From the NCBI RefSeq assembly GCF_003334355.1, contig NZ_QOWP01000002.1: a stretch of DNA of 64,000 nucleotides. One strand, 5' to 3'. The notes under the pieces are model-generated. The model had not been told where the DNA came from and ran no database searches. It was given only the letters and a program-made list of their open reading frames with translations. This stretch comes from Escherichia coli (GTDB lineage: Bacteria; Pseudomonadota; Gammaproteobacteria; Enterobacterales; Enterobacteriaceae). Positions 38,717-39,503 of the stretch are shown here, in pieces (within the stretch, counting starts at the first letter, position 1; every line of letters starts with the position of its first letter). The position numbers and the translations under genes are program-made.

Positions 38717-38731
38717 GCTTCTCTCCTGTGG

Positions 38732-38803
38732 TGAACTTATGGTTCATATTATGACGGAACTGATAGTACAGTCAATACCTAATATAGTTGAACTTATGGT
38801 TCA
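38732..38803. promoter_or_regulatory. Immunity-region operators and divergent promoters (pR / pRM)
   Basis: Two perfect 15-bp palindromes TGAACTTATGGTTCA (38732-38746 and 38789-38803); minus-strand TTGACT(38775-38770)-17-ATAATA(38752-38747) pR; plus-strand TATAGT (38783-38788) 7 nt before the cI ATG. Confidence 0.65.
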
Positions 38804-39503
38804 ACAGAAAGAGCGTGAAACTTTCTCGCAGAGGCTTGCGCTGGCCTGTGATAAAGCGGGATTACCTTTGCATGGTAGGCAGGCTGATTTAGCTGTCAGG
38901 CTTAAGGTCACACCAAAAGCCATTAGTAAATGGTTCAACGGGGAGTCAATACCAAGAAAAGACAAGATGGAATCTCTGGCTTCGGTGCTGGGAACTACTG
39001 CTGCATATCTGCATGGCTATGCTGATTATGACGGTATCACGGTAAATCATCTATCAAGATCAAATGATTCTTATCGTGTTGATGTATTGGATGTTCAGGC
39101 GAGCGCCGGGCCAGGAACCATGGTTTCCAATGAATTTATAGAAAAGATAAGAGCAATTGAATATACGCCCGAGCAGGCAAGAATTTTATTTAATGGAAGG
39201 CCACAGGAAAGCGTAAAAGTCATCACGGTTCGCGGTGACAGCATGGAGGGAACCATCAATCCGGGAGATGAGATCTTTGTTGATGTATCCATAACCTATT
39301 TTGATGGCGATGGCATTTATGTGTTTGTATACGGGAAAACAATGCACGTTAAGCGCCTGCAAATGCAAAAGAACAGGCTTGCCGTCATCTCTGACAATGC
39401 CGCTTATGATCGATGGTACATAGAAGAAGGTGAAGAAGAGCAACTTCACATTCTAGCCAAAGTCCTCATTAGGCAGTCAATCGATTACAAGCGATTCGGA
39501 TAA
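38796..39503 (+). CDS. cI: CI-type prophage repressor (HTH-XRE N-terminal, LexA/S24-like autocleavage C-terminal domain, 235 aa)
   Basis: HTH FSQRLALACDKAGLPLHGRQADLAVRLKVTPKAISKWF; Ala-Gly cleavage site (QASAGPG); S24 motifs VRGDSMEGTINPGDEIFVD and HVKRL. Start placed at Met56 of ORF 38631. Confidence 0.85.
   Translation: MVQQKERETFSQRLALACDKAGLPLHGRQADLAVRLKVTPKAISKWFNGESIPRKDKMESLASVLGTTAAYLHGYADYDGITVNHLSRSNDSYRVDVLDVQASAGPGTMVSNEFIEKIRAIEYTPEQARILFNGRPQESVKVITVRGDSMEGTINPGDEIFVDVSITYFDGDGIYVFVYGKTMHVKRLQMQKNRLAVISDNAAYDRWYIEEGEEEQLHILAKVLIRQSIDYKRFG

What the first reader, a model, noticed from the sequence alone, without database searches (positions are those of the whole stretch)
38717..38810. 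Immunity switch built from two perfect 15-bp palindromes, one containing the cI start codon
TGAACTTATGGTTCA occurs twice, 57 bp apart. The first copy (38732-38746) overlaps the predicted pR start region (TTGACT-17-ATAATA on the minus strand). The second (38789-38803) contains the ATG of cI, which has a -10-like TATAGT 7 nt upstream and no room for an SD, implying a leaderless cI mRNA as from lambda pRM. Related half-sites (TGAACTT) recur in the presumed pL region 39520-39600. I do not recognise this operator sequence from a characterised phage.
Basis: seen in the sequence. Interest (0 to 1): 0.5.

Follow-up and report, generated by a model that had tools for sequence, protein, structure and literature searches.

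The report
Phage HK022 right operator, already known
The repeated 15-base sequence is the well-studied pair of repressor-binding sites OR1 and OR3 of coliphage HK022, sitting here in a prophage that borrowed HK022's immunity region, so it is a correct observation of something already known.

Summary
The repeat is real. TGAACTTATGGTTCA occurs at 38732-38746 and 38789-38803, and it is the only exact 15-mer pair within 100 nt in the 64-kb window. It is not a perfect palindrome: only the 5-bp arms TGAAC/GTTCA are symmetric.

Window 38303-39685 is 99.7% identical to the phage HK022 immunity region (X16093, AF069308). The four nucleotide differences all lie inside cI. The deposited HK022 annotation names the two copies as the outer two of three OR repressor-binding sites (OR1 and OR3 in the HK75 record).

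The cI ATG does lie inside OR3, with TATAGT 7 nt upstream and no Shine-Dalgarno sequence. This layout is kept without gaps in 29 distinct OR regions from relatives down to about 52% CI identity. That supports a leaderless cI mRNA, but I could not read any transcript mapping.

HK022 CI binding, cooperativity and OL-OR looping are published. Verdict: observation partly confirmed, interpretation partly right, novelty none ("already known"), low interest. The host prophage is a P22-like mosaic that keeps putL and putR but lacks nun.

The parts
38732..38746 (.). OR1, an HK022 CI operator (TGAACTTATGGTTCA). It lies just downstream of the pR -10 and covers the pR start region.
   Evidence: Annotated 'oR pot. 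repressor binding site' in X16093 and 'oR1' in HK75. Scores 10/10 against TGWAC-N5-GTWCA. A site is present at this position in 38 of 39 relatives.
38748..38753 (-). pR -10 hexamer (CATAAT on the minus strand).
   Evidence: X16093 and O276 annotations. Promoter scan TTGACT-16-CATAAT, 10 of 12 matches. Mean majority frequency 0.95 in 29 distinct relatives.
38756..38770 (.). It lies in the pR spacer, and its spacer overlaps the candidate PM -35 (CTGATA, 38760-38765).
   Evidence: X16093 and HK75 annotations. Scores 9/10. Present in 38 of 39 relatives. Candidate -35.
38770..38775 (-). pR -35 hexamer (TTGACT on the minus strand).
   Evidence: AGTCAA is kept in 27 of 29 distinct relatives.
38783..38788 (+). 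Candidate PM (PRM-equivalent) -10 hexamer TATAGT, ending 7 nt before the cI ATG.
   Evidence: Promoter scan. A TAnnnT hexamer at the same distance in 28 of 29 distinct relatives. A 'PM-10' label sits on this stretch of the HK022 cI construct in the supplement of PMC8053113.
38789..38803 (.). OR3, an HK022 CI operator, identical in sequence to OR1. It contains the cI start codon (38796-38798).
   Evidence: X16093 and HK75 annotations. Present in 39 of 39 relatives, with the ATG at the same place.
38796..39503 (+). cI repressor gene, 235 aa, with an HTH_3 and a Peptidase_S24 domain. It differs from HK022 CI by D78Y, Y92S, T125P and C168Y.
38486..38716 (-). cro gene, 76 aa, identical to HK022 Cro. 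Its ribosome-binding site AGGAG is at 38723-38727.
38465..38479 (.). OFR, a distal CI operator downstream of cro (GGTACTAAAAGTACA), next to putR.
   Evidence: HK75 annotation 'OFR'. Scores 9/10. Present within 1 nt of this position in 33 of 39 relatives. PMC8053113 describes it as a CI operator about 300 bp downstream of OR that is involved in immunity.
38405..38461 (-). putR antiterminator RNA site.
   Evidence: O276 and HK75 annotations transferred by alignment.
38342..38374 (+). pE (PRE-equivalent) promoter with TTGC-N6-TTGT CII-type repeats around the -35, and TACTAT as -10. It would give a leadered cI transcript antisense to cro.
   Evidence: X16093 annotation. Sequence read.
39564..39578 (.). 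OL2 operator (TGTACTATTGGTACT), abutting the pL -35.
39588..39602 (.). OL1 operator (TGAACTTTAAGTACA), between the pL -35 (39578-39583) and -10 (39601-39606).
39511..39525 (.). Candidate distal OL3 (TTTCCTTAAAGTTCA). It matches reverse-complemented OL1 at 12 of 15 positions and is 53 bp centre to centre from OL2.
   Evidence: Inverted repeat I4. At least 8/10 in 18 of 39 relatives. '53 bp between OL2 and OL3' in PMC8053113. The HK75 record instead places oL3 at about 39542-39556, so the assignment is unresolved.
39622..39684 (+). putL antiterminator RNA site. Homology to HK022 ends at 39685.
   Evidence: O276 and HK75 annotations. Alignment. BLAST end point. Two stem-loops in the fold.

Best explanation
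The two copies are OR1 and OR3 of the right operator of the phage HK022 immunity region, carried here by a mosaic P22-like E. coli prophage.

The recognition element is a 15-bp site with 5-bp inverted arms, TG(A/T)AC-N5-GT(A/T)CA. It is bound by dimers of the 235-aa CI repressor, which has an HTH domain and a LexA-like S24 domain.

OR holds three sites:
- OR1 covers the pR start.
- OR2, 24 bp away centre to centre, lies in the pR spacer.
- OR3, 33 bp further on, covers the start of the cI transcript and its ATG.

Inferred mechanism:
- CI bound cooperatively at OR1 and OR2, and at OL1 and OL2, shuts off pR and pL.
- CI at OR3 limits its own synthesis from PM.
- OR1 and OR3 have the same sequence, so the order of filling must come from cooperativity and OL-OR looping rather than from intrinsic affinity.
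- cI mRNA from PM most likely begins at or within a base of the A of the ATG, making it leaderless as from lambda PRM.

Shown here: sequence identity to HK022, site positions, and conservation of the layout in relatives. Taken from the literature: CI binding, cooperativity and looping. Inferred: the order of occupancy, autoregulation at OR3, and the leaderless start.
For: Identity to HK022:
- 99.7% identity to X16093 and AF069308 over 38303-39685, with all four differences inside cI.
- The deposited annotations place oR sites at exactly 38732-46, 38756-70 and 38789-803, oL sites at 39564-78 and 39588-602, and the pR and pL hexamers and the cI start at the coordinates above.
- Cro is identical, and CI residues 1-77 (the HTH domain) are identical.
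- Pfam finds HTH_3 and Peptidase_S24 in CI.

Motif distribution:
- TGWAC-N5-GTWCA at 10/10 occurs three times in the window, all in OR or OL. Shuffles give 0.3.

Comparative evidence:
- 29 distinct OR regions from CI relatives of 52-100% identity align without gaps.
- Arms are 93-99% conserved, against 74% for the OR1 spacer.
- OR3 always holds the ATG.
- A TAnnnT hexamer lies 7 nt upstream in 28 of 29.
- None of the 29 has an SD-like motif.
- The same layout is seen in Salmonella phage S9-5 and Klebsiella phage ST15-VIM1phi2.1.

Literature:
- HK022 CI binds cooperatively to adjacent operators in OR and OL, and loops OL to OR in vivo (PMC8053113, citing Carlson & Little 1993).
- The supplement of the same paper labels 'PM-10' on the stretch just upstream of the cI ATG.
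Against: - No transcript or binding data exist for this particular prophage.
- The primary HK022 papers (Oberto 1989, Cam 1991, Carlson & Little 1993) are not held in the library, so the mapped PM start and the measured affinities could not be read.
- This CI carries four substitutions in the linker and C-terminal domain relative to the reference. These could change cooperativity or induction.
- OR2 is centred about 33 bp upstream of the cI ATG, against about 42 bp in lambda (my own knowledge). Lambda-style activation of PM by CI at OR2 therefore cannot be assumed.
- The frame upstream of the ATG stays open in 27 of 29 relatives, so an extended product is excluded only by annotation, by conservation pattern and by the two relatives that have stops.
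Confidence: 0.93

Rival explanations
1. A two-operator switch. Only the two identical copies are repressor sites, and the sequence between them is promoter only.
For: The two copies are the only exact repeats. They are the best matches to the symmetric consensus within OR.
Against: A third site, GGAACTGATAGTACA, scores 9/10 at 38756-38770. It is annotated as an oR site in X16093 and HK75. It is nearly invariant in 38 of 39 relatives. Its 24-bp centre-to-centre spacing from OR1 matches the adjacent-site cooperative binding reported for HK022 CI.
Confidence: 0.03
2. The cI mRNA made in lysogens has a leader. The maintenance transcript starts upstream (for example from a promoter inside or beyond cro, or from pE), and TATAGT is not a functional -10.
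For: The only -35 candidate is poor (CTGATA, 4/6) and lies inside OR2. pE exists upstream and must give a leadered cI transcript during establishment. No transcript data were available to me.
Against: A TAnnnT hexamer is kept exactly 7 nt before the ATG in 28 of 29 distinct relatives, while the 7 nt just upstream of the hexamer vary (majority frequency 0.62). No relative has an SD-like motif, so a leader would not help translation. The HK022 field labels a PM -10 on this stretch.
Confidence: 0.1
3. The repeat is a chance or recombination artefact with no binding function.
For: None beyond the general frequency of short repeats.
Against: It is the only such pair in 64 kb, against 0.005-0.02 expected. 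The exact arrangement is found in 12 IMG/VR contigs. The arms are conserved in diverged relatives while the OR1 spacer drifts.
Confidence: 0.01

Closest known systems
Phage HK022 OR/OL operators and CI repressor (X16093, AF069308; Oberto, Weisberg & Gottesman 1989; Carlson & Little 1993)
   Same: OR1, OR2, OR3, OL1, OL2, OFR, pR, pL, pE, putL, putR and cro are identical base for base. The CI DNA-binding domain is identical.
   Different: There are four amino-acid changes in the CI linker and C-terminal domain. nun is absent downstream of putL and is replaced by an HNH endonuclease gene. The rest of the prophage is P22-like, not HK022.
Phage HK75 immunity region (HM173637)
   Same: The OR region is identical. 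The same named sites oR1-3, oL1-3, OFR, putL and putR are annotated by similarity to HK022.
   Different: HK75 is 94.8% identical overall. Its cro is diverged, and OFR, OL1 and OL2 each carry a single-base change. HK75 keeps nun.
Phage lambda OR (OR1-OR2-OR3 between PR and PRM, leaderless cI mRNA)
   Same: Shared features are divergent cI and cro, three tandem dyad-symmetric operators, OR3 over the cI promoter and start, CI with an HTH and an S24 domain, no SD before cI, cooperative pairwise binding, and OL-OR looping (the lambda facts are from my own knowledge).
   Different: The HK022 sites are 15 bp with 5-bp arms, against 17 bp in lambda. OR1 and OR3 are identical in sequence. OR2-OR3 spacing is 33 bp centre to centre, against about 23 bp in lambda. 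OR1 lies downstream of the pR -10 rather than over it. An extra distal operator, OFR, is present. The CI proteins are too far apart for a PDB sequence hit.
Relatives in Salmonella phage S9-5 and Klebsiella phage ST15-VIM1phi2.1
   Same: They have the same gap-free layout, the same TGAAC/GTWCA arms, and the ATG inside OR3 with a -10-like hexamer 7 nt upstream.
   Different: The OR1 spacer differs, so OR1 and OR3 are not identical there. CI is about 80-90% identical in S9-5 and 53% in the Klebsiella phage. The cI start is mis-set in both deposited annotations.

Membership tests
HK022-type immunity specificity (CI/Cro operator set of phage HK022) | Operator sequences OR1, OR2 and OR3 identical to those annotated in the HK022 record | tested here: met
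   There are no differences in 38303-38795 or 39504-39685. The annotated oR sites map to 38732-46, 38756-70 and 38789-803.
HK022-type immunity specificity (CI/Cro operator set of phage HK022) | Repressor with the same DNA-binding domain as HK022 CI | tested here: met
   CI residues 1-77 are identical. The four substitutions are at residues 78, 92, 125 and 168.
HK022-type immunity specificity (CI/Cro operator set of phage HK022) | Same Cro protein | tested here: met
   The 76-aa Cro is identical to that of X16093.
HK022-type immunity specificity (CI/Cro operator set of phage HK022) | OL operators and distal OFR at the HK022 positions | tested here: met
   OL1, OL2 and OFR are identical to HK022. 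The position of the third OL site is ambiguous.
HK022-type immunity specificity (CI/Cro operator set of phage HK022) | CI protects these sites, and the lysogen is immune to HK022 | not testable with these tools
   Known for HK022 only through a secondary citation (PMC8053113 citing Carlson & Little 1993).
Phage HK022 itself (whole phage) | nun gene downstream of putL, and an HK022 genome backbone | tested here: not met
   tblastn with Nun finds nothing in the window. Homology stops at 39685. HK022 covers only 39% of window 30000-50000. The structural genes are P22-like, including the tailspike and a SieA-like gene.
Lambda-type CI/Cro bistable switch | Divergent cI and cro flanking a short region with three tandem dyad-symmetric operators that overlap PR and the cI promoter | tested here: met
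Lambda-type CI/Cro bistable switch | Repressor made of an N-terminal HTH and a C-terminal LexA-like S24 autocleavage domain | tested here: met
   Pfam HTH_3 (E 5e-9) and Peptidase_S24 (E 3e-19). phrog_4 transcriptional repressor.
Lambda-type CI/Cro bistable switch | Leaderless cI mRNA from the maintenance promoter | tested here: inconclusive
   The geometry (TATAGT, 7 nt, ATG), the absence of an SD, and conservation in 28 or 29 of 29 relatives support it. No transcript data were available.
Lambda-type CI/Cro bistable switch | OR2 placed so that bound CI touches RNA polymerase at the maintenance promoter (centre near -42) | tested here: not met
   The OR2 centre (38763) is 33 bp upstream of the cI ATG, and the candidate -35 lies inside OR2. 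The lambda figure is from my own knowledge. Activation may still occur by another geometry.
   Five of seven symmetric pairs match. The reverse complement is TGAACCATAAGTTCA.

The most novel reading that the evidence does not exclude
This natural allele differs from the laboratory HK022 reference in several ways:
- The CI carries D78Y, Y92S, T125P and C168Y in the linker and C-terminal domain.
- It sits in a P22-like prophage that keeps putL and putR but has no nun.

It might therefore have measurably different cooperativity, looping or induction behaviour. If so, it would offer a natural test of how a switch with identical OR1 and OR3 sets its order of occupancy purely through protein-protein contacts.
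Probability: 0.1. Interest if true: 0.3.

Novelty: already known. Interest (0 to 1): 0.07.

Why it matters
It matters little beyond correct annotation. The finding rediscovers the HK022 right operator, which was described in 1989 and studied biochemically in 1993.

The useful by-products are small:
- A comparative map shows that the OR1-OR2-OR3 layout, with the cI start codon inside OR3 and a -10-like hexamer 7 nt upstream, is kept without gaps across CI relatives down to about 52% identity in Escherichia, Salmonella and Klebsiella phages.
- Gene callers mis-set the cI start in at least two deposited relatives, probably because the gene has no ribosome-binding site.
- HK022 immunity with its put sites circulates in P22-like prophages that lack nun.

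Tried and rejected
- Rfam at permissive threshold over 37800-40400, and at gathering threshold over the whole window. No family exists for put RNA. The only local hit (mir-7927, E 0.005, far below gathering) is a chance match to the hairpin at 39692-39733.
- PDB sequence searches with CI and Cro gave no hits.
- Primary HK022 literature. PMC206910 is not held, and a phrase search for the Cam et al. 1991 title found nothing. Searches for HK022 with 'leaderless' or with OR3/PRM gave only incidental mentions.
- The operator-like 9/10 site inside cI at 39083-39097 was considered as an extra operator. I rejected it because the fixed bases follow from the codons for D-V-L-D-V-Q, and the variants in relatives are synonymous-type changes.
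- A longer CI starting upstream (the mechanical ORF from 38631, or the in-frame ATG inside OR1) was considered. I rejected it as the main product. All curated records start at the OR3 ATG, protein similarity in relatives begins there, and two relatives have in-frame stops upstream. The frame is nevertheless open in 27 of 29.
- A fold of putR on the window I chose gave no significant z-score. putR is assigned by homology only.

Full report
**Observation.** The 15-mer TGAACTTATGGTTCA occurs exactly twice in the window, at 38732-38746 and 38789-38803, 57 nt start to start. It is the only pair of identical 15-mers lying 15-100 nt apart anywhere in the 64 kb. First-order Markov simulations gave a mean of 0.02 such pairs, and the analytic expectation is about 0.005. 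So it is not chance.

It is not a perfect palindrome. Its reverse complement is TGAACCATAAGTTCA. Only the 5-bp arms TGAAC/GTTCA are symmetric (5 of 7 pairs), and the central TTATG is not. The search accordingly found no zero-mismatch hit on the minus strand.

- The ATG at 38796 is inside the second copy.
- TATAGT (38783-38788) ends 7 nt before that ATG.
- TTGACT-17-ATAATA can be read on the minus strand. The promoter scan and the deposited annotations prefer TTGACT-16-CATAAT, one base over.

**Identity.** Window 38450-39650 is 99.7% identical to the immunity region of coliphage HK022 (X16093.1, AF069308.1). It is 99.6% identical to the HK022/lambda hybrid O276 and 94.8% identical to HK75. A direct comparison with X16093 shows identity from 38303 (the end of that record) to 39685 with only four differences, at 39027, 39070, 39168 and 39298. 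All four lie in cI and all are non-synonymous: D78Y, Y92S, T125P and C168Y, outside the helix-turn-helix domain. Cro is identical.

X16093 is the sequence of Oberto, Weisberg and Gottesman 1989 (reference 1 in PMC6256539). It annotates three 'oR potential repressor binding sites', which map to 38732-38746, 38756-38770 and 38789-38803. It also annotates:
- the pR -35 at 38770-38775 and -10 at 38748-38753;
- the cro ribosome-binding site and gene;
- the cI gene starting at 38796;
- two oL sites at 39564-39578 and 39588-39602, around the pL hexamers.

The HK75 record names the same sites oR1, oR2, oR3, oL1-3, OFR, putL and putR by similarity to HK022. O276 annotates putL and putR as antiterminator RNAs. 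The statement that the operator is not from a characterised phage is wrong.

OR2 (GGAACTGATAGTACA, 38756-38770) lies between the two copies, inside the pR spacer. Taking the six annotated sites together, the recognition element is TG(A/T)AC-N5-GT(A/T)CA. Matches at 10 of 10 arm positions occur three times in the window (OR1, OR3, OL1), against 0.3 in shuffles. OR2, OL2 and OFR score 9 of 10. OFR (38465-38479) lies just downstream of cro, beside putR.

A third OL site exists in the literature. PMC8053113 speaks of '53 bp between OL2 and OL3'. That fits TTTCCTTAAAGTTCA at 39511-39525, which is 53 bp centre to centre from OL2 and matches reverse-complemented OL1 at 12 of 15 positions (repeat I4). 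The HK75 record instead places oL3 at about 39542-39556. Both positions show partial conservation in relatives, and I could not settle which is correct.

**Comparative evidence.** The exact OR1-42 nt-OR3 arrangement is present in 12 IMG/VR contigs. The immunity region is in 10 of 5,426 complete E. coli genomes, including one that is 100% identical over 38450-39700.

A scan with the CI protein returned 55 viral loci with relatives of 32-100% identity. From the 46 loci where the match begins at residue 1, plus the window, I extracted the 85 nt upstream of the ATG. These gave 29 distinct sequences, from CI relatives of 52-100% identity, that align without a single gap. Majority frequencies were as follows.

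| Element | Mean majority frequency |
|---|---|
| Operator arms | 0.93-0.99 |
| OR1 spacer | 0.74 |
| 7 nt between the pR -35 and the PM -10 | 0.62 |
| cro leader | 0.58 |

Further points from the same set:
- OR3 keeps the ATG in the same register in all 29.
- A TAnnnT hexamer lies 7 nt upstream in 28 of 29 (TATAGT, TATGCT, TATGAT, TACAGT, TATATT).
- None of the 29 has GGAG, GAGG, AGGA or AAGG in the 20 nt before the ATG.
- OR1 equals OR3 in only 4 of the 29 distinct sequences, so the exact repeat is a feature of the HK022 lineage. The arms are what is conserved.

The same layout is visible by eye in Salmonella phage S9-5 and in Klebsiella phage ST15-VIM1phi2.1, whose CI is 53% identical. Across 39 distinct loci, sites recur at the positions of OFR (33), OR1 (38), OR2 (38), OR3 (39), OL2 (33) and OL1 (33).

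**Mechanism.** CI has an HTH_3 domain and a Peptidase_S24 domain, as in the LexA-like lambdoid repressors. By position:
- OR1 covers the pR start.
- OR2 fills the pR spacer.
- OL1 lies between the pL hexamers.
- OL2 abuts the pL -35.

CI bound there should therefore block both lytic promoters. OR3 covers the start of cI, so CI there should limit its own synthesis.

PMC8053113 states, citing Carlson and Little 1993, that HK022 CI binds cooperatively to adjacent operators in OR and OL and that an operator about 300 bp downstream of OR contributes to immunity. The same paper shows OL-OR looping by HK022 CI in vivo. Because OR1 and OR3 are identical, the order of filling cannot come from intrinsic affinity. 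It must come from the OR1-OR2 pairing (24 bp centre to centre) and from looping. This is my inference, in line with the title and secondary description of the 1993 paper.

The leaderless cI mRNA is well supported by the geometry and its strict conservation. It is also supported by a 'PM-10' label on this stretch in the supplement of PMC8053113. I could not read the transcript mapping, because the primary papers are not held.

One difference from lambda deserves care. OR2 is centred about 33 bp upstream of the cI ATG, and the only -35 candidate (CTGATA) lies inside OR2. Lambda-style activation of the maintenance promoter by CI at OR2 therefore cannot simply be assumed. PMC8053113 likewise notes that the operator arrangement differs from lambda.

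**Context.** The prophage is not HK022.
- Homology to HK022 ends at 39685, directly after putL (39622-39684).
- Nun is not encoded anywhere in the window.
- What follows putL instead is a hairpin with a U-run (39692-39737) and an HNH endonuclease gene (39746-40279).
- HK022 and HK97 each cover only about 40% of window 30000-50000.
- The window also holds tRNA-Arg(CCT) at 7776-7850, an integrase, an O-acetyltransferase, a P22-type tailspike, a SieA-like gene and an Erf gene.

This is a P22-like mosaic prophage that carries HK022 immunity and put sites.

**Verdict.** The functional reading is broadly right. The system is already known in detail, so interest is low.

Noticed in passing
window 39686-40279: Homology to HK022 stops at 39685, directly after putL. 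The nun gene is absent from the whole window. In its place are a hairpin with a U-run (39692-39737, terminator-like) and an HNH endonuclease ORF (39746-40279). E. coli S1-CAM-01-C has the same arrangement.
   Followed up: partly
window 39027, 39070, 39168, 39298 (inside cI): These are the only four differences from the HK022 reference across 1,383 bp. All are non-synonymous changes in CI (D78Y, Y92S, T125P, C168Y), in the linker and C-terminal domain. The same allele is 100% identical in several natural E. coli genomes and in three IMG/VR contigs.
   Followed up: partly
window 38739-38741 and 38631-38795: The OR1 copy also contains an ATG, in frame with cI (57 nt = 19 codons). The frame upstream of the cI start stays open in 27 of 29 distinct relatives. 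The deposited records of Salmonella phage S9-5 (extended start) and Klebsiella phage ST15-VIM1phi2.1 (truncated cI plus a spurious opposite-strand ORF) mis-set the cI start, probably because there is no ribosome-binding site.
   Followed up: partly
window 39083-39097: An operator-like site, TGTATTGGATGTTCA (9 of 10 arm positions), lies inside cI and scores at least 8/10 in 34 of 39 relatives. The fixed bases follow from the codons for DVLDVQ, so it is probably not an operator.
   Followed up: partly
window 39511-39525 and 39542-39556: There are two competing candidates for the third left operator. One is a distal site 53 bp centre to centre from OL2, which fits the literature description. The other is an adjacent weak site that the HK75 record calls oL3. 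Both are partly conserved in relatives.
   Followed up: partly
window 38465-38479: The distal operator OFR (GGTACTAAAAGTACA), downstream of cro and beside putR, is conserved within 1 nt of this position in 33 of 39 relatives. It is therefore a stable part of this switch family, not an HK022 oddity.
   Followed up: partly
window 7776-13835 and 41772-42407: tRNA-Arg(CCT) is followed directly by an integrase, an O-acetyltransferase, a P22-type tailspike and a SieA-like gene. An Erf-type recombinase lies in the pL operon. The prophage is a P22-like podovirus mosaic. The integrase sits next to the tailspike end rather than at the end of the pL operon.
   Followed up: partly
window 39606-39700: putL-like sequence (93-95% identical) is present in 27 further complete E. 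coli genomes that do not carry this immunity region. put-type RNA antitermination therefore travels with other immunity types.
   Followed up: no
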